DNA of 64,000 nt, taken from the IMG/VR virus record IMGVR_UViG_3300031555_002904; one strand, 5' to 3'. The translations under genes and the position numbers were made by a program. Origin of the DNA: a virus. Taxonomy: Duplodnaviria > Heunggongvirae > Uroviricota > Caudoviricetes. The notes under the pieces were generated by a model that ran no database searches, was not told the DNA's origin, and saw nothing but the letters and a program-made list of their open reading frames with translations. This document shows positions 2,829 to 57,246 of the stretch, one piece after another. Positions within the stretch are counted from its first letter, which is position 1; the number at the start of each line of letters is the position of its first letter.

Positions 2829-5276
2829 TTATATAATATTCTCTGCGGCCTTTGTCGCAGTAATAGACATTGTACCATTATAAGATAATGGTAAAGTAAT
2901 TTTACTTACAATATAATCTCCATCCAATCCTGTATCATCATCATGTAAATAAATACGAGTATTTGGTTGAAGATAATAAATTGGAATAGCTGTAATTGTA
3001 GCACTTTCAATACAATAACTGTGCTGATATAATAACTCATCTAATCGCTCTTTTGCGGATTTACCTTGCGCGCTAATTGAAAACATACCATCAATCTCAG
3101 CGCATTGAATATAGCGAAAACCAGGTAAAGCGCCCGTCTCACCGGGAGCCGCATAAATAACATTAGGAGTTTCTCTAAAGTAAATGGACTTTACATTAGA
3201 GTCATTGATTGCTTTTGGCCGTGCGCCAATGTTCTTTACATCGTATTTAGATAATTCACTAGATTTCTTTTTATCTTCATGTGAACCATCTAAAAAATCA
3301 AACCAAAAGTTTAAAGTTTCAGGTTTTTTATATACGGCCTTGTTCCAATATCTATGATCTCCGCTCTAATAATAATTTTCATTTCTGTCCTCAATTAGTT
3401 GCTCTACTTTTATAGTAATTTTATCTAATTCATAATTTAGATTTTCTAAACGATCTTTTTCTCTAAAATATAAATCGTTTAAAATTCCCATTGCGATATA
3501 AGGATCAGAAACATTAATAAACAAAGAAGCATACTGTGGATACTAATTTTTAAATTGAATTAATATCTAATTGGCTTCTGTTTGATCATCATCAGATAAT
3601 TCGTTATTAATTGCAGCTAAATAGTTTTCTAGTCCTCCGATACGATTATCGGTATTTGGATTTTCTTCTCCAAAAACAATCACAGTCAAAGTGTCTACCT
3701 ATTGTTGTAAATTAGTCTATGTGTTTAAAGCCTCTTGATATTGTTCATCCAATTCTGGATAATATAGCTATCTCCAAAAGCCTTGTAAGTCAATATAATA
3801 AATTTCATATCCTGTGCGGCCAGTCGGATATAAATCTCCATTCGCTTTGGCTACTCGCAATTCAAAGTCGCTTAAAAAATTATATTTATAATAATCAAGT
3901 GCCATTTGATAAATTACTTCACGCCAATCTGATTCATCTGCTGTAATTGTAGAAGATTCCTATCCTTTTACATTTACTTTATAATTATTATTATAAGTTT
4001 GTAACTCTTTATTATTATCTTCTACAAAAATTTTTGTATATTGTTTTGGTTTGCGATCAATAGCATAACGAATATGTACTGGAATTTTTGCTCCACTCAC
4101 ACTTTCACGTTCACCCCAAATTGAATAATCATTTTTAAGATTTAATAAATTGGGATTATTATTAAATGCTGTAATTAACTCACTACCACTAAACATATAT
4201 GAATGTGTTGAAGCGAGCGCTAGAGCCTGGCTCATAGGTGCATTTGAAGTTGTGGCCGCAGGTGACCACATTGTAGAAATAAAGGACTATTTTTTCTAAA
4301 AAATAAATCTTCCATCTATATCATAAAAATATTCAAATTCAACTAACATATTTTTAATTTTATCTAATACGCTAGTTAAACTTTCACCTACATTCGCAAT
4401 TAAGTCTCCTGCATATACTAAATCAGTTTCTCTATAGCCCGCAGTCTAACCATACTCAACTTTTGCTACATACCACTCTTGACCGTCCATTTCAATAATT
4501 ACATTAGTTAAAGTTCCTGTAAATGGATCAACTAACATTTCTAATTCCTCTGGCCGCAAACGATCGAGAGTCTTCGTCTCTCCGGTTTTTTGGACCCTAC
4601 AGATTTTTTTTCCATCAAGGGTAGCATTACGATAAGACTAATCATGAATACTTCTATACAAATACATTGGAATATCATATCTATATTCTAGCAATTCTAA
4701 ACCGTATGTATCTAAATCATTAATAATGATATTATGTAATGGTTCTCCACCATATACATGAACTGCATTACGAATAATATCTTGGATAGGAATCTTTCTA
4801 AGAGTCCATACACCTTCAGCATTTTCTTCCTCAATACAGCCAAAATCAATTGAAGATTCTAATGTACCTCCAATTTCACCATTTAATAAAGCCATTTTAT
4901 CTTTGCCTTGAATGGTTATAGAAAAATTATTCGTACTACGAGAAGTATTAAAAACGGTAATTAAAAAAATACCTTGATTAAACCAGATAATTTTAGGATA
5001 CTTAGTATCAATAGTATTTTCAACACCAACTTCTAACTTAAATTTAGTATTTAAACCCCAATAAAAATCATTATATTTAAAATCTTGTGCCACAATAGTT
5101 AGAGAACAGGTACGACGGACCGCAGAGGATCCATCAATATTAATAGACCCCTGCGTAACACGTCCTTCAATAGTTTCAATGGGTAGCTCTTGAAAAGTAA
5201 GAGCAGTAATACGAGCATAAATAATTTTATTTTTTGATTTATCTAATTTTAATAAAAAATCTTTATCATATAGCAT
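2829..5276 (-). CDS. Tail/baseplate hub-type protein (DUF5048-like), ~815 aa with TAG=Gln
   Basis: Fragments 4638-5276, 3960-4271 and 2829-3086 share a frame and are separated by TAG; motifs RRTCSLTI, GKDKM, IPIYYLQPNTRI. Confidence 0.65.
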
Positions 5277-11300: not shown

Positions 11301-14235
11301 CCTCAGCAGCCCCGGCCGCACTTAACTGAAATTTCGTACTTGCCTTAACAATACCACAACTTCCACCAAAAGCAGTTAAACCAATAACTTTATTTCCATC
11401 TTCAATTTTTGTAGGAGCATTGCCATTTAATTTAAACAACCAAGAGGAAGTAAATTCAGAAGTCTATCCGACTCCATTAGCTCCAATACTGAGATCAATT
11501 TCTTCATTATTAAAATCTCTTAAAGATACATCTAAAATTAAATTTTTAGTGGGTAAAGTTGCTACCTAATTTGTAGCAGGATTAATAGATAAAGTATATT
11601 TAGTACCATTGCTACCTATTACTCCAAAATTAAAAAATTCTTCGCCACTTACAATATCATTATCAGTAGCAGCTCTAAATTCACATTTAATAGAATTAAT
11701 ACTTGCGGAAGCATCATAGTACGGTTTAATTTTATACCAAAAATCTCTTGTATCAAATCCATTACCATCCAAGAAAGTCCATTTACCAGACTCATCTTTT
11801 TCTCCCTAAATCTATTTATAAAAACAAATATATCCAGCTTTTGAATAAGGTGGTTTTGGATTCATTTCATAATCAGTGACAAATCCATGAGCGATAAGCT
11901 CATCAATATTAACAGTTAACATAGTTGAAGTAATAGGAACGTACCAATAAATACCTCCGCTAGCAAGGATTTCATCACCATATAATAAACCATCATATTT
12001 AACTCGAATTTGTCGTAAATGGCTTGCGTCAGCGCTATCCATTAAATAATTAGTTAAATTATAGCATTGATAATCATTGCGAGATTTATCAATATGTTCA
12101 AAGATTAATAAATCTCCTGTTTCAATATTTGCGGTTTCGGGTATCCGATCTTCGTTAGTAAAAATTAACTCATCGCTTTCATACATTGCATGATTATAAA
12201 ATAATACTGCTTTGTATTTTTCTTCAGATTCATTAAATCTCATTATAACATCAATTAATCCCTCTCCTGGAGCGAGTTTAATTGCATTATAAGTTTTACC
12301 ATCAATTTTTTCACCTTTACCAGGAACACCTATATTGCGAGGAAGTTCAGTTAATCTACGCCAACCGTTAGATAAAAACTAATGAACTTCATTATTAACA
12401 TAATCTTTATCATATCTAAACCAATAAATACAATACTTATTATCATAAGCACTTAAATCTTTCTTAATATAAGATTTCCATTGAGTTTTTGTATTTTTGT
12501 AAGATTGTAAAGTATTATAATCAACACCATTAAAAACATCAATTGGAAAATCATATTTACTTTCTGGATCTAAATACTCTTCCAAAGTATTTAGCACTCG
12601 TTCCAATCGTATTTTATAAGTGTCATAAACTCCTGCATATCCACTATATGCGGCAGCATCTCCATACACTCCTGGTTTAATGACATTATTTAATAACGCT
12701 TCAATCTTTTGTCGCACAGTTTTAAAAGCAATCTTTATATTATTTCCATAGTGAATATCCCATTTACTATTCCAGTTATTTATTTTTTCACTATCGCTAG
12801 CCCATTCAAGATTTTGAGTTTTTACACCATGTGCTAATACACCCTTATATTGTGCTTCCAAAAGCTCAAGATTGTCATCAATATCTGCGGCAAGGGCAGC
12901 TAAAGAATCGGACCCTCCGGCGGCCGCAAGCGCAATTAATTTATCAATTTCATTTGTAAAAGTAGTAACTCCTTCTACCTAAGAACGCAAAGCTCTTAAA
13001 GTAGTTGTTAAATCCTAAGTGACTACTTTCATTGCCTTTGTAATTAAAGGAATAGCTTCTTCTAGATTAGCAGCAAGATTTAAACTATCTCGGTCTGTCG
13101 GGATACCTTCTCTACCCATCTAAGCAGTTAATCTAGTATCTTCTTTTGCTAAATTCAAATATTCTATTTCATCATAATCAGGGTCATATAATCCGTCACT
13201 AAAACCTAAATATTCATTTAAATCATTTTTATTATACCACAATAAACCCAATCGCTTTTCATTAGTAACTTTATTAATTTCATTAGGATAGCCTAATTTT
13301 TTATCATAGGGATATGGATTATGACCATAATATTTATATTGTGGATCACTTTCAGTATAAATTTTTAAAGTGTTATCACCAACTGCAACTAAATCGCTAC
13401 CAAATCCTAGCTCAATATTTTCTACAGTAATATTGCCAATTAAAGCAGGTTCAATTTTATTTCCATTAATATCAAAAAAATTACCATCTTGATATAATGT
13501 CAGTAAAATATCTGTAATAATACCAACTGTTCCAATATCAAAAATTTTTGTCTACTAAGTAGCAATAGAAAATGCATATGGATTACCAAACATTTCAGAA
13601 CTTTCTAAATAAGCAGTTTTTAAAAGTTTGCGTGTACTATTTCTGTTTGGTTTTACAACTAAATCTAACTATAAACCATATGTACCAGATTTTACATTAT
13701 AATTATGTAAAAAAGTTTTAAAATCTGCTTTTAAAGTAATTGTATTATAAATACCATTAGTTTGAAGATCAGCAAAAGCACCATCAGCTAATGGAATACA
13801 ACAAATTAAATGATGTTTTGGGTCAGGATCATCTTCAGTAATTTTTCCATTTGCAATAATGCTCATTCCCTATTTATCATTTGGAATTAAATTACCTGTA
13901 ATATTAACTACTGTATTTAAAGGTGATACATATGTAATTGGCTAAGTGTAATTATCAGTTACATATTTACCAACAATAAATTTCTTTTTTGTAAGATCAC
14001 CCTTAATAATAGAAACACGAACCTAATCATTCACTTTGTATTTATCATTATCACTATATGCTTCAAAACGAACGGTACCATCAGTTACTTGATATCTACC
14101 ATTTTTACTATCACTTGCATCAACAATAGTACAAATAATAGTTGTATCAAATGATATATCTTTGAGCTTTCGATCAATAAGGATATCTACACCCTAAAAC
14201 AACTGCTCTAAATAATCAGTATGATTATTGTCCAT
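8305..14235 (-). CDS. Very large tail fibre/host-specificity protein, ~1,976 aa with TAG=Gln
   Basis: Eight track fragments share one frame; ATG 14235 with SD, TAA 8305; C-terminal Gly-rich beta repeats (GHVGIGIAP, GNLGIGIEP). Confidence 0.7.
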
Positions 14236-14354: not shown

Positions 14355-17300
14355 TTATTTACGATTCGCGTATTGAGATGCTTGATTTACTAAATTATTA
14401 AATGCCTCTTCGATTTCATTTCTATCACTGACGCCAGGGAAACTAGCTTCGATATGAACATTCTATTCAATTGTAGTTTCATTATTATTTCCTCCATAAG
14501 AAGGACTAGATAATAATCCACCCAGTTGCGCATTCATGCTATGTAAATCAATAACCTACAAAATACGCTCTAAAACTTCCATGCTAGCCAAGAAATTAGC
14601 TGTATCGCCCTAATTCAAAACCAATTCTTTTTCATCTAAGATACCAAGTTTACCATAAGATCCCCAAGAACCAGTATATCCACCAGTATTAAAACGAGAG
14701 AAAATATACTTACTATAATCGCTAGGCCAATTAATACCATTAGCAGCAATTAACGCCTAAGAATTACCAAAATAAGTATTTACCAAACCTTGAATTTCAT
14801 TATAACTAAATCCTTTAGCTTCAAGATTCTTTTTTCGCGTAGAACCGTTACCCCAACCGGCCGCAGTTGCATTTCTAATAATTGCTAAAGCGACTCCTGC
14901 CTTAGTTCTTGTATCATACTAGCTAGCTGCACTATTTTCACTTTCAGCACTATCGTTTTGTGTTTGCTAATTTGTAGTAGTATTGTCAGTAGCATTTTCA
15001 GCATTTGCATTTGCTTGTTTAGCAGCTTCTTCTTCAACCTTTTGAGTCTAATTAATTTCGCCTATTAATAGTTCATGGTCTCCAATTAATCCTTGAATTT
15101 GTTCTCTAACTAATGCATAAGCACCTGTTAAATTACCAACTTCAGTAATTTCAGCCTAAATAGCATTAACAACTCCACCTTTACCATCTTTTCCAATTAA
15201 AGACTCTTTTAATTTATCACTTTCAATAGTAATAGATAATACTTGATTATCAACTTTATCTAAACCAGTTTGATCTAGCGCAGTTTTAACAGTTGTTGAC
15301 CATCCCAATAAAGTATTTGCACTATCTTTAGTATATTGATTTACAGCATTCTATAACTCACCAGTTTTGTAAATCATATCATTAAAATCTGAACTCCATG
15401 CATCATTTATTACTCTACTATCAGTGGTTAAAGCCACTTGATAAAGACTAGAATAATCTTTTAGCTTGTCAAAATAATGCTATTTTGCTGCAGCCATTTT
15501 AGCATTATATTCCTCTTCGTTAGCAATTTCACCCTCTAAATATGCCTATTGCAATTCTGCTAAAGTATCATACATTTCTTGCATTGTTTCAGCATATTTC
15601 TAGCTATAATCGTTTGCACCTTCTAGTCCAATATTATATAGTGAATTTTGAGCATCTTCAAGCTCTTGCTAAGCCTAAGCAACTTTATCTTGATCTGCGG
15701 TATAGACGTAACCAAAATTACCTTCAGCATCACGCTATAGGCGAACAGTAGATTTTGCATTTTGAGCTTCTTCTAAAGCAATTTCTGCCAAAAGCAAATC
15801 ATATTTCGCCTACTAAATTTCTAATTCATAATTACTCAATTTAGTTTGATTCTATAATTGCTCAGTCTCTTGGATAAATTGAGTTAATCTGCGTTTTGCC
15901 ACAGTATTTTGAGTTTTATCAATTTCTTGTTGTGCGGTACGCATTAATTTATTAGTTTCATAAATCTAATTAGTAGTAGTTAAATATTCTTCTTGAAGAC
16001 TGCTTGCACGCTCCATAGATTCAAGCATCGTATCAAAATCAGAGCCTCCTGTTAAAGTCTCTTCTAAAGTTTGATTTAACTCAGCCATATTATTTTCAAC
16101 AACAGCTTTCATTGCTTCAATCCATGCTTCAGTTTTTGAAAGCATATTATCTTGAGCATCATTAGCTGCAGTTTGCGCAGCTTCCCAATTGGCCTTATAT
16201 ACTTTCCAAGCATCAGAGCCCTCAATTGCGCTATCCATTTGCTCTTTCCATCGCTTTGCCTCAGCGTCGTACATTGCATATGTTGCCTGTGCTACTTCTA
16301 ATTCATTACGAGTAGTTTTTGCCTATCCCTCTAGAATAGAACCCATAACTGCATAATCTTGTTTCTTACCTAACAAATCCATAATACTGGAATAATGATC
16401 TAAAACAGAAGTAAGATGTTCCATTTTATCAGTATATTTACTTAGCTCTTCATTTGCCGCATCTAAAGTATTTCCATAATACTCTATCATTTGACGGTCT
16501 AAGTCGATTAGTGCTTGAGCATTTTCCATAGTGGCATCTTTTGCATTTTGCAATCCTTCAATATAAGCTGCTTGAGAGATTTCACCATTTTTATAAGCTT
16601 CTTCTAAGTCAGCAACGTATTGTCTTTGTAATTGAAGATTTTCTTCATAAATAGAACTAGATTCACTAAGTTTAGCGTAAGCTTCAGCCATTAAATAGAA
16701 ATCGTCTTCCATTTTATTCATATGATATTCAATCATAGCCAAATCATCTTCATTAAACTGTATTTCAATTTCTAGAGCATAATTTAATTTTTCAAAATTA
16801 TTATCCTGAATTTCATTGCGTTTATCCTATTCTTCATTCTCTAAATCTTCAATTAATTCACGAGTTTCATCGTATTGAGTAATAGCTTCTTTAAGTCTAT
16901 CTAATTTCTTATCAAAAGCATCTAATGTTTCTTGTTCAGTATCATCAATCTCTTCACCAAAACTGTCTAATAGAGCTTCTCTCTCATTATACAATTTTGT
17001 CATTTGAGACTCATAATTAGCAATATTGCCATCTTGATAATTGAAAGAAATCCCTAAATCAGCGGCAGCCGCATTTAAATCATCTCTATCAATCTTTAAA
17101 TAAGCTTCAGCCTCAGACCTTTTTTCTTTAATTAATTCAATCTCATCTTCTAAAATCGAATTAATCTTTTCCATTTGATTAATACGAGCAGTACCCCATA
17201 AACGATCGGCCGCTTTAGATGCATCATCCAAAGCATCAGCCATATCATCAAGCTTATCATTTACTGGTTTATAGCGTTCAACCGTATCAGATTTTTTTTG

Positions 17301-20300
17301 GCGAGCCTCTGAAGTTTTCTTTGGTTTAGAACCTCCACTCTATTTGCCAGTTGTGGTAGAAGATTGACTTACTTGAGGAGCAGGTAATGAAGTAAAAGCT
17401 GTAGTAACATCTCCATCACCTTCAGTACCTTCAATTGTATATTGAGGAACCCATCCATTAACTTCTACTGGTTCTCCGCTATAAGTCTAAGTATATTTAC
17501 GATACATTGGTAATTGAGCTGTAATTGGAGTACCATCTTCCTAATAGCCAACTGTATAAGTTTGTTCTCCCCGTTTTTCTAAATATTCATCAGTAATAGT
17601 AGTTGGGACAGAGGTAGTTTGCTAAACATAATTAGTTTTAACATTAGCACTAACATTTAATCCAGCTAATGCAGCTTCAATTTGTTCTTTAGTCATGTTA
17701 CCAGCTTTAATCATTTCATTAAATGAATCAATTAAAGCAGATTGATCTACATTACCCGCAGATACTCCTTCGGCCATATTTGCTTTTAAATATTCCCACT
17801 ACGTTTGAACTGTTTGAATATTTTCATCGCCTTCAATATCTAAATTAGCAATAATATCATCTGCTGCGGCTAATCTTAATCTTAAAATCGCATCTACATC
17901 GCCATCAAGCGCCAACTTTAAATCTTCAGAAGCTAAAGCATCTTCTGCAAATTGATCACTTAACATTGACCCATCTGCGACATTTACTATATCAGCTAAA
18001 TCTGTTTTTAAATTTGATAAAGTATTAGACCACTCAGCGCTACCTTTATTGGTTGTATTTAAGGCTTTTTTATAATCATTTAAATTATCATTTAAATTAC
18101 TTACGCCTCGATCTAAACGCATATTAGCAGTTGCTAATTTTGTAGCATCTTTAATACTTAAATTAGAATCTTTATGTAAATCTTTTAATCTTTTTGTATA
18201 ATCTTCTAATTCTTCTGCATTTAAATCATATTTTTCTGCCAATTCACCCACTTCAACAGCAGCCTCTAATGCGCTTTGAGCAACTTTAATCTCTGTTTCA
18301 CTGCCAGTTAGTAAGGCTTTAGAATATTCTTCTGCTTCTTCTGTGCAATTACTATAATTCTCAGCTAAGGTTAAAAGAGCTTGGCCATATTCATATGTAT
18401 CGAGTCCTGACTCTTCACTTAAACCAACAGATTGGATTTGTTTTAACTCTTCTAAAGAAGAAGCCTAATTAGCTAAAACTGTTAATTGTTTATCATAAGC
18501 AGCTTCATCAATTAATCCTTGACTAAATAAATTCTATAAATCCTAAATAGAAGTAGCAGTAGATGCCATCATTTCATTTAACTATTCTTCAGAGGTCTCT
18601 AAATTTTGAGTCATATAATCATCAACATATGTAAGCATTGTCTCAAGACGCTCTCTATTACCATCTCGAGCTTCCTGAAGGATAGTGTTAATAGTAGTTT
18701 CATCATAATTATTATTATCTAAAATTTCTTTTATTGCAGCATTATTATCAATTAAATTTTTAGTTTGATCTGCCATAATGTTATTAATCATATCTTCGCC
18801 GCTCTTGTAGCCATGATTAATACCATTCTGATTACTTAGCTTACCGTCTTTACCATCGCCATATTGTTTATCAATGGACGTAGCAGAAATTTTCCAATCA
18901 GCTTCAGAATCAATAACTTGCTCAACCAATCCTTTTCTTACTGCTAAATCTTCACGTTGAGTCGCAATATTTTCTCTAGTAGCATTTAACATTTCTGCGG
19001 AATCGCCAATAAATTTGCGAGTTCCATCAGCTTGTAAAATAAAGAATTTTTCCCACTCTTGATTATAAGCAACTAACTTCTCATAATCTTCGTCTTTAAT
19101 AACATCACCGAAATCTAAAGAACCTAAAATTGCACTTATTTCTTGTAAATTTGTTTGCAATTTAGTAAAATCTGGAAAAGCTCCATTAGCTATCCGCATA
19201 TTTTCAATAAAAGTTTTCCAGTAAGAATCAGTGGTATTAATCTATTTACCAAAACTTGCTAAAATAGTTTGAGCTTGTTCCATAGCATCCCAAGAAGACC
19301 AATCAATTCTTGATAACTATTCTAATGCAGTCATTTGATCCTCTTCATCAATCTATGACAACATAGAATTAAGGCCTTCTATATATTGATCACCAGCTTG
19401 CAATCCCAATGAGCCCAAATTCATTTTATCTGCAGCTGCCTCAATTGATTGAGCAATTCCTAAACTTAAGTCATCAAAAACAGATAAGCCTTTTGCAATA
19501 TCTAACTTATCTACTTGATCTTTAAAACTAGAAACTTGTGTATTGAAAGATTCTAAATAAGCCTCTGCACTCATGTAACCCTTTGATTTCCACAGAGCTT
19601 CAAAAGCTTTATCATCTATATCTAAATAATCTTGTAAATCTTGAACAGTATTAAAAGTTTGAATATCACCGTTTGCATATCCTACTGAAACATCTGAGAT
19701 ATCTCCTCCAGAAGCTTGAGAATATGCTAAGGCTCCAGTCAAATCTCCAGACTCACTTTTTTCAGACAATTTATCTAAGTTCTTTGCAAAAGTTTCTAAA
19801 GATATGCCAACATTTTCTAAAGCTTGCTCTTGAGCCATAAAAGCTTTAATACTGTCATTAGAGAATTTAATAGTTTGTCCAGCAGTATCTAAAAATTCAA
19901 CAATTCCATCTTTTTCAGAAACAAAAGTTAAATCTTTCTTTTTGGCGTACGACTTCTATAAATTTTCCCTTTGTTTCTTATCATATTTGTCATACTAGTC
20001 AAGAATACGCTGTGATTCAGTCATCATTTCTGCAGCAGCTAAATTATTTAATGCTGTTTTATGCTCTGAGTCACTATATACTTCGTTATCTTTCCAAGCA
20101 TTATTAATAATAAACTTATTATTTTCAAGAATTGCCTATGTATTTGAAGATAATGTGTTCATTAAGTCCTATAAAGCAGCTTCAGTCATTCCTAGGGCGT
20201 TTAATAAATCATCCTTAGAATCAATACCTTCAAGACTTAATTCTCTTACAATCTTATTAAGATTACCATCATAACTATCCCAATATTTTAAAACTTCATC

Positions 20301-46097: not shown

Positions 46098-46295
46098 GCG
46101 AGGGGTCAAACCCTCGCTTTTTCTATTGAATTTTCGGCCGCGCGCCCACGATTGTCATGGGCGCGAATTTCCATTATACCACAGCCCCAGCAATTTGTCA
46201 ATAGGCAATTTCAACAAAATAATCATCCCACAAAATCCCGAATTTGTGCAACATTACCAGTTGACTTTGTGTGCGGTCTGTGGTATACTATCATT

Positions 46296-46812
46296 GTCAA
46301 GAGGGAACGCAAACTGTGGCGCGAATGTAGCGCCCGATTCAGGAGAAGCGGTACCGACAATAACAGAGCGAAAAAAGTTGAAAAAATTTCAATTTCCCTC
46401 TTGACAAATCACCCAAGTTGTGATACAATAAGGGTGTCAAGGGGGAGGGAAACCCCAATCGAGTATCCTCCCCAGTAGCTCCCTCGCGAAAAGGTGAGAA
46501 AAAGTTGGGAAAACCCCTTGACAAATCCCTTAGAGTGTGATACAATAAGGGTACAAAAGGCGAGGGTAAGGCAACCGCGAAGATGGCGGATTCCCACGAG
46601 AGTATGTAAGACCATTACCCGATGACCCGACCGCAAGGTGTTCCTGTTTGCGGTATACAAATGTGAACCAGACCCCACAGGCTGAAAAAATGTTGGGGAT
46701 ACGCAGGATACAAAAGCCACCACCCCTACTGCGGGAGAAGGAAAACTACCCCGGAAAACCACGAGGTTCTCGCCAAGTATCTTCTCGGAAAAATATAAGA
46801 CTTGGCAAAAAA
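46296..46812 (+). ncRNA. Cluster A: three promoter-driven ORF-less RNA units
   Basis: Promoters at 46261, 46401, 46518 with no SD-ATG gene; third unit ends in hairpin GCCAAGT...ACTTGGC. Confidence 0.5.
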
Positions 46813-48646: not shown

Positions 48647-49105
48647 ATGAAAACTATGAAGACTATGAACATCACCATCAACTTCGATATGGACGGAACA
48701 ATCGCTGACCTGTACGCAAACCCCAACTGGTTGCCCCTGCTCCGAGCCTACGACCCCACTCCCTACGCAACGGCAAAGCCTCTGCTCCGCTTGTGCGACC
48801 TCGCCCGCAAGCTGAATACTCTCCAGAGAAACGGCTACCGCATTGCGGTAATCAGCTGGCTCAGCAAGGAAAGCACTGCCGAGTATGATGAAGCCGTTAC
48901 CAATGCAAAACTGGAATGGCTTGCAAAGCACCTGCCGAGCGTCAACTGGGACGAAATCACAATCGTTCCCTATGGCACTCCGAAAGAAAATTTCTGCCAC
49001 AACCCCCTTGACATTCTGTTTGACGATGAAGAACGCAACAGAAACAACTGGACGGGCAGAGCCTATGGAGTTGAAAACATCTTGGAAATTCTCAGAGAAA
49101 TCTGA
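48647..49105 (+). CDS. HAD-family phosphatase, 5'(3')-deoxyribonucleotidase-like
   Basis: FDMDGTIADL motif I, K, ILFDD motif IV. Confidence 0.8.
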   Translation: MKTMKTMNITINFDMDGTIADLYANPNWLPLLRAYDPTPYATAKPLLRLCDLARKLNTLQRNGYRIAVISWLSKESTAEYDEAVTNAKLEWLAKHLPSVNWDEITIVPYGTPKENFCHNPLDILFDDEERNRNNWTGRAYGVENILEILREI

Positions 49106-50779: not shown

Positions 50780-51076
50780 TGGCTCTTGAGGGGTCGAGCC
50801 AATCGACCCCATCCCACTTGAAAATCCGCTTGGTGGTGCTTGCGGATTAGACAATTCATAATCTCCTTTCTGGCGGTCCGCCACTCCAAAATGGGGTGGC
50901 GGATTGTCGGCTTTTTCGGCGACTCGCTCACGGGCGCGCGAGCCGAAATTTTATTATACCACAGACCCCAGCAATTTGTCAATAGGCAAACCGCACAAAT
51001 AAATCAGCGCAAAATCTCCCATAATTGTGCAACATTACCACTTGCATTTTGGCTCAAGATGTGATAGAATACTATT

Positions 51077-51532
51077 GTCAAGAGGGGACAGCAACTCCCC
51101 ACAGCCGTGAGGTTGAGCCACAGAATGGCGAAAAAAAGTTGAAAAAACCTCTTGACAAACGGCACAAGATGTGCTATAATGAGTATGTCAAGAGGGGACA
51201 GCAACTCCACTCGGTAGGTCGGGTCAAGTTGATGGACAGACCGAAACGAAAAAAAGTTGAAAAAACCTCTTGACAAACCCCACAAAGTGTGGTATAATGA
51301 GTGTGTCAAGAGGGGAACACATCGAGATACTCCCCTATGGATTGGTGGAAACGGAAACACTGCGGATTGAAACCAAGACCCATTGACCAAGTATGTTCGC
51401 CAAAGGGTAGAACGAACGGCAGAATGGTGCGGTAGACTCAGGGCAAGTAAGGACAGAATACAATCCCAATGACGGCATGAGGTCTGTTGTATAATGAAAA
51501 AAGTCCGGAATTTTTTCAGAAAACCTCTTGAC
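51077..51532 (+). ncRNA. Cluster B: three promoter-driven ORF-less RNA units
   Basis: Each begins GTCAAGAGGGGA 7 nt after the -10 box; first two share a 22-nt leader and tail GAAAAAAAGTTGAAAAAA. Confidence 0.55.
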
Positions 51533-54967: not shown

Positions 54968-55162
54968 GCGAGGGGAAACCCTCGCTTTTCCCATTAAGAT
55001 TTGGCGGCCCGCGGACGTATGTGCGCGGGCAGAAATTCCATTATAACAGACCCCCAGCAATTTGTCAAGAGGAAATTTTGCACAAATAATCATTCTGTAA
55101 AATCCCGTTATTTGTGCAAATTACTACTTGCAATTTGCGGTGCGATGTGGTACAATTAAGGA

Positions 55163-55330
55163 GCAATGAGGGTGAGCAACAACGCAGGACAGAGCGAGCC
55201 GAGCGAAAAAAAAGTTGAAAAACCTCTTGACAAATGCCCCAAGATGTGATACAATGTAAGAGCAATGAGGGGAACACCCCAAGCCAAGCGGTTGAAAAAA
55301 AGTTGAAAAAACTTCAAAAAACCTCTTGAC
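55163..55330 (+). ncRNA. Cluster C: two short promoter-driven ORF-less units
   Basis: Both begin GCAATGAGGG and end GAAAAAAAGTTGAAAAA before the next promoter. Confidence 0.45.
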
Positions 55331-56273: not shown

Positions 56274-56474
56274 GAAAAACCGCCTAAAATGGGCGGTTTT
56301 TCGCGTTTTTGTGTAATTTTTTGTGCGGTTTACATAATTTTCGGCCGCCCGCAGACAAATGTCGCGGGCGTTATTTAGCATTTTGCACAACCCAGGCATT
56401 TTTTCAAATCGAATTTTTGTGCACTATTACCACTTGCATTGTCCCGCAATTATGGTATAATACTATTGTCCGAT

Positions 56475-56571
56475 GGGGATGGGCTGGCTAGGAAAGTCAG
56501 AGGATGCTTTGGTCTAAGCCTTCATCCTGCCGAGGGTGTGCAAGGGGGTTCGATTCCCCCCATCTCCACCA
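56475..56571 (+). tRNA. Non-canonical tRNA-like RNA: Ala-type acceptor, CUA in anticodon-position loop
   Basis: GGGGATG/CATCTCC-A-CCA acceptor with G3:U70; T-arm GGGGG-TTCGATT-CCCCC; 6-bp D-like stem; own promoter at 56434-56461. Confidence 0.7.
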
Positions 56572-56640
56572 AAAAAAGTGCTTGACAAATGGCACAAAGT
56601 ATGCTATAATAAGTTCATCAAATGAAGGAGATTGATACCC

Positions 56641-57246
56641 ATGAGAAACATTAAACTTTTCGAGCGTGAGTTGGCGCTCATCGTAAATGAAGACCTGCGC
56701 ATGGCTACCAAGTCTTATCTGGAAGAAGCCACACCTGACTACTTTTGGACGGACGGCGCATCCAGTTCCGGCAAGTATCATCCGAAGTTCGCCCACGGCA
56801 TCGGCGGTACTATTCGCCACACCAAGGCAGTTGTGATGTTTGCAGAAGAGTTGCTCCGCATGAGTTCCTATGCGTACATGAGAGCAGAGTACAAGGATTA
56901 TGTCATTGTCGCCTGCCTTATCCACGACACGAACAAGTACGGCATCAAGGACTTTGACAAGTCCCAGTACGCAGACCATGCACGAAACGCCGCCGAGAGT
57001 TTCACCCATTGGTGCGAGGAACAGTACGGATTTACTCCCCATTTCTTGCTGACAAATGCGGTTGCAAGCCACATGGGGCAGTGGTCTACCGACAGAGAGG
57101 ACAGACCTTTTACTTCCGTAGACAGATGTGTTCACATGGCGGACTACATGGCAAGCCGTTCTTTCATCGACATTCCTGCAATCAGCGAGGAATACAGCAC
57201 GATTGCGTGCGAATGGGCGGCTCAAAACCACGAACTGCCTTTCTAA
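56641..57246 (+). CDS. HD-domain phosphohydrolase
   Basis: ASSSGKYHP...RHT...LIHDTNKYG...SHMGQW...VHMADYMASR. Confidence 0.85.
   Translation: MRNIKLFERELALIVNEDLRMATKSYLEEATPDYFWTDGASSSGKYHPKFAHGIGGTIRHTKAVVMFAEELLRMSSYAYMRAEYKDYVIVACLIHDTNKYGIKDFDKSQYADHARNAAESFTHWCEEQYGFTPHFLLTNAVASHMGQWSTDREDRPFTSVDRCVHMADYMASRSFIDIPAISEEYSTIACEWAAQNHELPF

What the first reader, a model, noticed from the sequence alone, without database searches (positions are those of the whole stretch)
56475..56571. Atypical tRNA-like RNA: alanine identity with an amber (CUA) loop in a TAG-recoding phage
Seen: acceptor GGGGATG/CATCTCC, A73 and encoded CCA; perfect T-arm; 6-bp D-like stem (CTGGCT/AGTCAG); an extended arm AGGATG/CATCCT enclosing CTTTGG-T-CTA-A-GCCTT; ~14-nt variable region; dedicated early promoter. 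Established: G3:U70 with A73 is the AlaRS identity shared by tRNA-Ala and tmRNA; long D-stems and 8/4 or 9/3 folds (also possible here) occur in tRNA-Sec and allo-tRNAs. This conflicts with the Gln reading of TAG. Inference: a non-standard suppressor, a mini tmRNA-like or decoy RNA, or a trigger of the code switch.
Basis: partly seen in the sequence, partly recalled or inferred. Interest (0 to 1): 0.85.

Follow-up and report, generated by a model that had tools for sequence, protein, structure and literature searches.

The report
Non-decoding alanine-type phage tRNA mimic
A gut phage that reads the TAG stop codon as glutamine carries a conserved, tRNA-shaped RNA gene with the marks for alanine loading but no usable codon-reading loop, so it is not the phage's stop-codon suppressor (ordinary ones lie elsewhere in its genome) but probably an early decoy for a host tRNA-handling enzyme.

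Summary
The 97-nt element is real. Five homologues (60-96% identical) from this phage lineage keep a five-helix tRNA-like fold by compensatory change: 7-bp G3·U70/A73/CCA acceptor, 6-bp D-stem, an elongated interrupted 'anticodon' arm, a V-arm hairpin and a T-arm. The CUA is not an anticodon. It sits in a 4-nt loop (CUAA) that reads UUAA, GAAUA or UGCAAAU in homologues. TAG aligns with Gln in terminase homologues. The same strain's tRNA array, just beyond the end of this contig, holds two canonical CUA tRNAs and two ordinary tRNA-Ala, and a complete TAG-recoded relative lacks the RNA. It is not a tmRNA tRNA-like domain either: its tmRNA score (38.9 bits) is like that of ordinary tRNA-Ala (33-42), against 72-78 for true mini-tmRNAs, and it lacks their motifs. 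It fills an exchangeable slot behind its own early promoter, swapped in sister strains for small ORFs or other RNAs. Best reading: an alanine-chargeable, non-decoding tRNA mimic acting as an early decoy. Target, charging and expression are not shown. No Rfam family. This scan noted Ala-type non-decoding phage mimics on other DNA before, but found no look-alike of this sequence.

The parts
56434..56461 (+). Dedicated sigma-A-type promoter (-35 TTGCAT, 16-nt spacer, extended -10 TG-TATAAT); predicted start about 7 nt before the mature 5' end
   Evidence: Sequence; homologues L043 and L109 have TTGACA-type promoters at the same place; inferred, not shown
56475..56571 (+). Alanine-type non-decoding tRNA-like RNA gene, 97 nt
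56475..56481 (+). Acceptor 5' strand (G3 of the G3·U70 pair); preceded by A(-2) U(-1) in all six homologues, an RNase P-type site (inferred)
56484..56500 (+). D-arm: 6-bp stem, loop AGGAA carrying the elbow GG
   Evidence: 4 of 6 pairs change on both sides; 6/6 paired in all six
56501..56528 (+). Elongated arm in place of the anticodon arm: 6-bp stem, 4x2 internal loop, 3-bp tip stem, 4-nt loop CUAA (56514-56517)
   Evidence: loop differs in homologues
56529..56543 (+). V-arm hairpin (13 nt) plus invariant AA before the T-stem, as in type II tRNAs
   Evidence: nearest outside match to the family model is a phage tRNA-Tyr
56544..56560 (+). T-arm, 5 bp plus 7-nt loop
   Evidence: Pairs 49-65 and 50-64 covary
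56561..56571 (+). Acceptor 3' strand with U70, discriminator A73 and encoded CCA
56274..56302 (+). Terminator-like hairpin of the upstream 122-aa gene, separating it from the RNA cassette (flank)
56582..57246 (+). Next cassette: consensus promoter and HD-domain gene (flank; present in relatives with or without the RNA)

Best explanation
An accessory early gene for a tRNA mimic that is loaded with alanine but does not read codons. SHOWN: a conserved five-helix tRNA-like fold; no anticodon loop; its own promoter-like site; an exchangeable slot among early small-ORF and small-RNA cassettes; the decoding tRNAs (Ala, Gln, CUA) are separate genes in the phage's tRNA array. INFERRED: it is transcribed at once by host RNA polymerase, trimmed by RNase P, folds into an L-shape through the D-loop GG and the T-loop, and is charged by host AlaRS, which reads G3·U70 and A73 and ignores the anticodon. 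Alanine identity is the simplest way to get an anticodon-less RNA charged and bound by EF-Tu. MOST LIKELY ROLE (inferred): bait that binds a host enzyme which recognises the acceptor end and elbow of tRNAs, such as a tRNA-cutting or tRNA-modifying defence or toxin enzyme or a tRNA-sensing alarm enzyme, and so protects translation early in infection. It probably arose from a type II tRNA (Tyr- or Leu-like) scaffold. About 0.85 that it is a functional non-decoding Ala-type mimic; about 0.5 for the decoy role.
For: Fold kept by compensatory change over 60-96% identity. Tip loop varies in length and sequence. Redundant for decoding: tRNA-Ala(UGC), Ala(GGC) and two CUA tRNAs in the same strain. Slot swapped in near-identical strains for a 67-aa ORF, a 75-nt insert or 141 other bases, and in other relatives for small ORFs or another T-arm RNA, the pattern of accessory host-conflict genes. 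It lies in an early region of more than 30 sigma-A promoters whose genes almost lack TAG (7 in 4,896 codons against 170 in 12,856 in late genes). tRNAs are frequent targets of anti-phage systems and phage tRNAs counter them (PMC11555353, PMC11464382, PMC12445682).
Against: No target identified; charging, processing and expression untested (RNA-run contigs gave no usable signal). Published rescue by phage tRNAs works by replacing a decoding tRNA, which needs the anticodon (PMC12445682), not by decoying. The G3·U70 pair was fixed in the patterns that found the homologues, so its invariance is not an unbiased result; two acceptor-free scans found no further member. Only six distinct sequences, four of them close (89-96%).
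Confidence: 0.5

Rival explanations
1. mRNA-independent alanine donor or poison: the charged RNA feeds or jams a pathway that uses Ala-tRNA without the 30S decoding site, such as RqcH/RqcP alanine tailing on split 50S subunits, or lipid and cell-wall alanyl transferases (MprF, Fem/MurM types).
For: Ala acceptor with an over-long arm that would not clash where no 30S is present (inference). The likely host group is Firmicutes (L113 contig binned in a Clostridia MAG), where RqcH tailing uses tRNA-Ala (PMC8373112). One homologue, L055, has UGC in a 7-nt tip loop.
Against: RqcH reads the anticodon loop, G35 in particular (PMC8373112); five of six homologues have no Ala anticodon at the tip. The phage already has ordinary tRNA-Ala genes. 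T-stem pairs look EF-Tu-compatible, unlike dedicated cell-wall tRNAs (own knowledge).
Confidence: 0.15
2. tRNA used as a stable scaffold to display the extended arm to a protein or RNA partner; the charge only protects the RNA.
For: Arm length and the internal loop are kept; the early region holds several other short ORF-less cassettes.
Against: The tip sequence is not conserved; no complementary stretch above chance in the phage's own DNA or tRNA array.
Confidence: 0.13
3. Mini-tmRNA (tRNA-like domain only) that titrates SmpB and blocks trans-translation, as described for the TLD-only RNA of phage DS6A; this would spare ribosomes paused at recoded UAG codons.
For: Best Rfam match is tmRNA, E 2.9e-14. 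Ala acceptor and an interrupted helix in place of the anticodon stem. The three divergent carriers are all TAG-recoded. Precedent in PMC4131195 and PMC11915505.
Against: 38.9 bits (L043: 32.1) is below the cut-off of 47 and in the range of ordinary tRNA-Ala (33.3 and 42.3); true TLD-only phage RNAs score 71.9 and 77.7. It has a covarying D-stem and a V-arm, which tmRNA lacks, and neither the 5' UCGAC motif nor the GAC connector that most of the TLD-only RNAs show. Complete TAG-recoded G001 lacks it.
Confidence: 0.12
4. Non-standard amber suppressor that inserts Ala at UAG, or the trigger of the code switch.
For: CUA at the tip in three of six sequences and UUA, which could wobble on UAG, in a fourth. 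Allo-tRNAs with G3·U70 engineered to CUA insert Ala in E. coli (PMC5389517).
Against: 4-nt loop; U33 is C in L109 and L112; GAAUA and UGCAAAU in the distant homologues; the arm is some 5-6 stacking steps too long (inference from the fold); TAG columns are Gln in 120, 90, 120 and 119 of 120 homologues; two canonical CUA tRNAs in the strain; absent from the slot in sister strains and from recoded G001.
Confidence: 0.04
5. Decayed tRNA-Ala or tmRNA remnant, or an integration scar, without function.
For: Patchy presence; not found by ARAGORN at default settings or by Rfam at cut-off.
Against: All stems paired in all six sequences with compensatory changes; both ends intact; promoter-like site directly upstream in five of six.
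Confidence: 0.03

Closest known systems
TLD-only (CDS-less) tmRNA of mycobacteriophage DS6A, and CDS-less organellar tmRNAs (PMC4131195; PMC11915505)
   Same: Phage-encoded short RNA with a G3·U70/A73/CCA acceptor and T-arm, no anticodon and no tag frame; proposed to act as a decoy
   Different: Has a 6-bp covarying D-stem and a V-arm hairpin; lacks the UCGAC and GAC motifs; tmRNA model score no better than a tRNA-Ala
Allo-tRNAs (Mukai et al., PMC5389517), including Ala-accepting ones with G3·U70
   Same: tRNA-Sec-like core: long D-stem, 6-bp proximal anticodon stem, V-arm, 12-bp acceptor/T branch; Clostridia-linked occurrence
   Different: 7/5 fold favoured (9/3 broken, 8/4 not excluded); D-loop 5-6 nt, not a tetraloop; no 7-nt anticodon loop; A73; short V-arm
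tRNA-Sec (Rfam RF01852)
   Same: 6-bp D-stem, 6-bp anticodon stem, V-arm
   Different: 14.2 bits against a cut-off of 47; 12-bp branch, A73, no UCA anticodon
Type II phage tRNA-Tyr(GUA) and tRNA-Leu
   Same: V-arm followed by two unpaired bases, A73; best outside matches to the family model (52 and 38 bits)
   Different: Acceptor carries G3·U70; anticodon loop replaced by a 16-17-nt folded loop
Canonical phage amber suppressor tRNA(CUA) of code-15 gut phages (Borges et al., 10.1101/2021.08.26.457843)
   Same: Same kind of host phage (about 200 kb, TAG read as Gln, gut)
   Different: That role is filled by two ordinary 75-nt CUA tRNAs in the strain's array (L162:17051-17200)

Membership tests
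Amber suppressor tRNA | CUA in a 7-nt loop with U33 on a 5-6-bp stem | tested here: not met
   4-nt loop on a 3-bp tip beyond an internal loop; position before CUA is C in L109 and L112
Amber suppressor tRNA | Anticodon conserved in homologues | tested here: not met
   CUAA x3, UUAA, GAAUA, UGCAAAU
Amber suppressor tRNA | Amino-acid identity matches the recoded meaning | tested here: not met
   TAG aligns with Gln; acceptor is Ala-type
Amber suppressor tRNA | Read-through of UAG in vivo | not testable with these tools
   Needs a reporter assay
tmRNA / TLD-only tmRNA | G3·U70, A73, CCA acceptor and T-arm | tested here: met
   (acceptor partly imposed by the search patterns)
tmRNA / TLD-only tmRNA | Unpaired D-loop (no D-stem) with the UCGAC-type motif | tested here: not met
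   6-bp covarying D-stem; motif absent, present in most of ten TLD-only phage RNAs printed
tmRNA / TLD-only tmRNA | Short GAC connector before the T-stem, no V-arm | tested here: not met
   V-arm hairpin plus AA
tmRNA / TLD-only tmRNA | RF00023 score above 47 bits | tested here: not met
   38.9 bits; tRNA-Ala controls 33.3 and 42.3; TLD-only controls 71.9 and 77.7
tmRNA / TLD-only tmRNA | SmpB binding | not testable with these tools
   No smpB in the held contig; binding needs an experiment
Allo-tRNA | 8/4 or 9/3 acceptor/T branch | tested here: inconclusive
   9/3 broken in two of six; 8/4 pairs in all six but shows no double change, whereas 7/5 has double changes at 49-65 and 50-64
Allo-tRNA | Long D-stem with tetraloop, and V-arm | tested here: inconclusive
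   6-bp D-stem and V-arm met; loop is 5-6 nt
Allo-tRNA | Anticodon stem-loop with a 7-nt loop | tested here: not met
tRNA-Sec | 13-bp branch, G73, UCA anticodon, RF01852 above cut-off | tested here: not met
   12 bp, A73, no UCA; 14.2 bits
AlaRS substrate | G3·U70 with G2-C71 and A73 | tested here: met
   All six sequences; identity rule from established knowledge
AlaRS substrate | Actual alanylation | not testable with these tools
   Needs an aminoacylation assay

The most novel reading that the evidence does not exclude
A new class of phage anti-host RNA: an alanine-charged, non-decoding tRNA mimic on a Sec/allo-type core that neutralises a host tRNA-targeting defence enzyme or jams mRNA-independent alanine tailing (RqcH), that is, counter-defence by a decoy tRNA and not by replacing a cut tRNA.
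Probability: 0.3. Interest if true: 0.8.

Novelty: new variant of a known kind. Interest (0 to 1): 0.52.

Why it matters
It removes a false lead: there is no Ala/Gln conflict at TAG in this phage, and the missing suppressor was an assembly gap. What remains is an undescribed, structurally conserved RNA family that standard tRNA and Rfam annotation miss. Known phage tRNA counter-defence works by replacing a decoding tRNA; a charged but non-decoding mimic in an exchangeable early slot would point to decoying, and gives a small, directly testable molecule (charging, pull-down, SmpB and RqcH assays). It also flags the early regions of these 200-kb gut phages as rich in unannotated small RNA genes.

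Tried and rejected
ARAGORN and Rfam at cut-off: nothing in the window. BLAST against GenBank phages: only T-arm/acceptor fragments. An exact D-arm pattern found nothing in viral contigs. HD-gene and 124-aa-gene relatives in IMG/VR and ENA mostly lack the RNA. Intron-containing tRNA-Gln(UUG), ARAGORN's relaxed call with a 9-nt intron: rejected, since position 33 and UUG are not kept in L110, L043 or L055. 9/3 fold: rejected. 'No canonical suppressor in the genome': an artefact, the contig ends about 3 kb before a 41-gene tRNA array. Expression: contigs of runs X19, X20, X22 and X8 laid on the locus; the two RNA libraries do not cover the RNA's middle and X19 is only guessed to be RNA, so this is no evidence either way. 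Antisense partner in the phage's own DNA: none above chance. Whole-contig search of sister strains L102-L108 was not possible, so absence of the RNA elsewhere in those strains is not shown. Four literature searches found no description of this family; the library is incomplete. The phage's clade within Borges et al. was not tested. No structure or complex prediction was run, as no protein partner is claimed.

Full report
Observation. The sequence at 56475-56571 is as described. ARAGORN and Rfam at cut-off report nothing in the window. Folded alone it gives another structure, no more stable than shuffles (z -1.16), so the cloverleaf had to be tested on homologues.

Context. The window lies in a 176,574-bp linear virus contig, estimated 92% complete. 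Reading TAG as sense raises ORF coverage from 0.71 to 0.93. The four TAG codons of the terminase gene align with Gln in 120, 90, 120 and 119 of 120 homologues, so TAG is Gln. The RNA lies in an early region with more than 30 sigma-A promoters whose genes nearly avoid TAG (7 in 4,896 codons against 170 in 12,856 in late genes). It has its own promoter-like site (56434-56461), after the terminator of a 122-aa gene and before the promoter of an HD-domain gene. Runs that hold the locus are faeces and bovine gut metagenomes; a homologue's contig is binned in a Clostridia MAG, a weak pointer to the host.

Homologues and fold. Pattern scans gave five further distinct sequences: L109, L110 (= L113), L112 (89-96% identical) and L043, L055 (= L111) (60-78%). 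The flanks of L110, L112, L043 and L055 are related to this phage's genes, and the two distant carriers are TAG-recoded too. RNAalifold returns the five-helix fold. Ten of 31 pairs change on both sides; 0/500 shuffles reach this and slid controls give 2-3. By hand segmentation every stem is fully paired in all six. The 7/5 acceptor/T fold is supported by double changes at 49-65 and 50-64; 9/3 is broken in L043 and L055; 8/4 pairs but shows no double change. Caveat: the patterns fixed G3·U70, so its invariance is partly imposed; acceptor-free scans found no member with another acceptor. Features conserved without being asked for are G8-G9 and the D-loop GGAA in L043 and L055, A(-2) U(-1) in all six, and the ACCA end in L109, L110 and L112.

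The CUA is not an anticodon. The 16-nt 'loop' folds into a 4x2 internal loop and a 3-bp tip; the U·G closing pair becomes C-G in L109 and L112, which confirms the tip and leaves a 4-nt loop. That loop reads CUAA (three sequences), UUAA, GAAUA and UGCAAAU. The arm is several stacking steps longer than a decoding arm (inference). The lack of tRNAs in the contig is an assembly gap: walking along contigs identical to it (100% over 6.6-20 kb), including one JGI contig that carries the identical RNA, leads into an array of 41 tRNA calls. It holds tRNA-Ala(UGC), Ala(GGC), Gln(UUG), Gln(CUG) and two tandem 75-nt CUA tRNAs with normal 7-nt loops (L162:17051-17125 and 17126-17200), the second with an acceptor like the phage's tRNA-Gln genes. 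Relatives G001 and G003 also have canonical CUA tRNAs. G001 is complete, TAG-recoded and has no copy of the RNA. The RNA is thus neither needed for nor suited to recoding.

Not a mini-tmRNA. The Rfam tmRNA match (38.9 bits) comes from the acceptor and T-arm. Ordinary tRNA-Ala genes score 33.3 and 42.3 on the same model, and real TLD-only phage RNAs found on the way score 71.9 and 77.7. Most of those carry a UCGAC motif and a GAC connector; this family has a D-stem and a V-arm hairpin followed by AA in their place. tRNA-Sec scores 14.2 bits. A model built from the six sequences scores members at 71-115 bits (by construction) and all else at 52 or less; the nearest outsider is a phage tRNA-Tyr(GUA), then tRNA-Leu. 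This suggests a type II tRNA scaffold given an alanine acceptor (inference).

An exchangeable slot. Strains with an identical upstream protein carry, between the same promoter and the HD gene, either this RNA (L102, L108, L151), a 67-aa ORF (L103, L104, L107), a 75-nt GC-rich insert (L105, L106) or 141 other bases (run X8). More distant relatives have small ORFs, nothing, or another T-arm-containing RNA there. About eight further short cassettes, nearly all without an ORF, sit behind their own promoters in the same region. This is the behaviour of accessory host-conflict genes, not of core translation genes.

Mechanism. Shown: conserved tRNA-like fold, Ala-type acceptor, no anticodon, redundancy for decoding, accessory early slot. 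Inferred: early transcription, RNase P trimming, alanylation by host AlaRS (anticodon-independent; established knowledge) and EF-Tu binding. Most likely role: bait for a host enzyme that grips the acceptor end and elbow of tRNA, such as a tRNA-targeting defence or toxin enzyme (0.5). tRNAs are common targets of anti-phage systems (PMC11555353, PMC11464382, PMC12445682), though the published phage answers replace a decoding tRNA. Rivals: mRNA-independent Ala donor or RqcH poison (0.15; RqcH reads the anticodon loop, PMC8373112), scaffold for the tip (0.13), SmpB sponge like the DS6A RNA (0.12; PMC4131195, PMC11915505), amber suppressor (0.04), remnant (0.03). Expression is not shown.

Novelty. 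No Rfam family and no paper found for this fold. It works like a non-decoding Ala-type phage tRNA mimic, a kind with one published example (DS6A), but fails membership of tmRNA-TLD, tRNA-Sec, suppressor tRNAs and, on the anticodon arm, allo-tRNAs (PMC5389517). Earlier notes of this scan describe Ala-type non-decoding mimics in other phages but no look-alike of this sequence in other genomes. Verdict: new variant of a known kind, interest 0.52.

Noticed in passing
L162:17051-17125 and 17126-17200 (same strain, beyond the contig end): Two tandem canonical CUA tRNA genes within an array of 41 tRNA calls; the second has an acceptor like the phage's tRNA-Gln genes. These are the likely TAG=Gln suppressors.
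   Followed up: yes
window 46295-46394, 46435-46511, 46552-46811, 51076-51145, 51186-51263, 51304-51521, 55162-55220, 55261-55319 (+): About eight short cassettes, nearly all without an ORF, each behind its own sigma-A promoter, several starting with the same GTCAAGAGGG leader; some are 73-92% conserved in relatives; no Rfam match. Candidate early small RNAs.
   Followed up: partly
L105 and L106, about 3565-3640: A different GC-rich insert of about 75 nt fills the same promoter slot in two sister strains; no Rfam match.
   Followed up: partly
L175:2319-2402; L055:6130-6232 (minus strand): Structured RNAs closed by a long terminal GAGGGAG/CTCCCTC helix; the L175 one contains a perfect T-arm (Y RNA-like layout) and fills the same slot; the L055 one lies directly upstream of the homologue. 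No Rfam match for L175.
   Followed up: partly
L004, L022, L024, L031, L045, L067, L076, L078, L079, L082: Many 81-111-nt phage RNAs that look like true TLD-only tmRNAs (UCGAC and GAC motifs; L024 and L078 above the tmRNA cut-off), suggesting the DS6A type is widespread in phages.
   Followed up: partly
L042, L047, L044, L053, L051, L062, L069, L081, L084, L101: Several other families of 87-113-nt G3·U70 acceptor RNAs with unusual cores in viral contigs, unrelated to this family beyond acceptor and T-arm.
   Followed up: no
L157 about 18870-18970 and 19775-19875; L162 about 13300-13410 and 16880-16990: Irregular T-arm elements in the tRNA array sharing an ACAGCAA motif, not called by ARAGORN.
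   Followed up: no
L202:1501-1635 (G012): A tRNA-Tyr(GUA)-like gene with an insert of about 50 nt in the D-arm region in a related complete phage, missed by ARAGORN.
   Followed up: partly
L197, L200 against L196, L198, L199: Terminase genes of relatives G012 and G006 have no in-frame TAG while G001, G002 and G003 have 3-9, so the code may vary within this phage group.
   Followed up: no
window 56641-57246; 48647-49105: HD-domain protein (named YqeK-like by JGI in homologues) and an NT5C-like nucleotidase among the early genes.
   Followed up: partly
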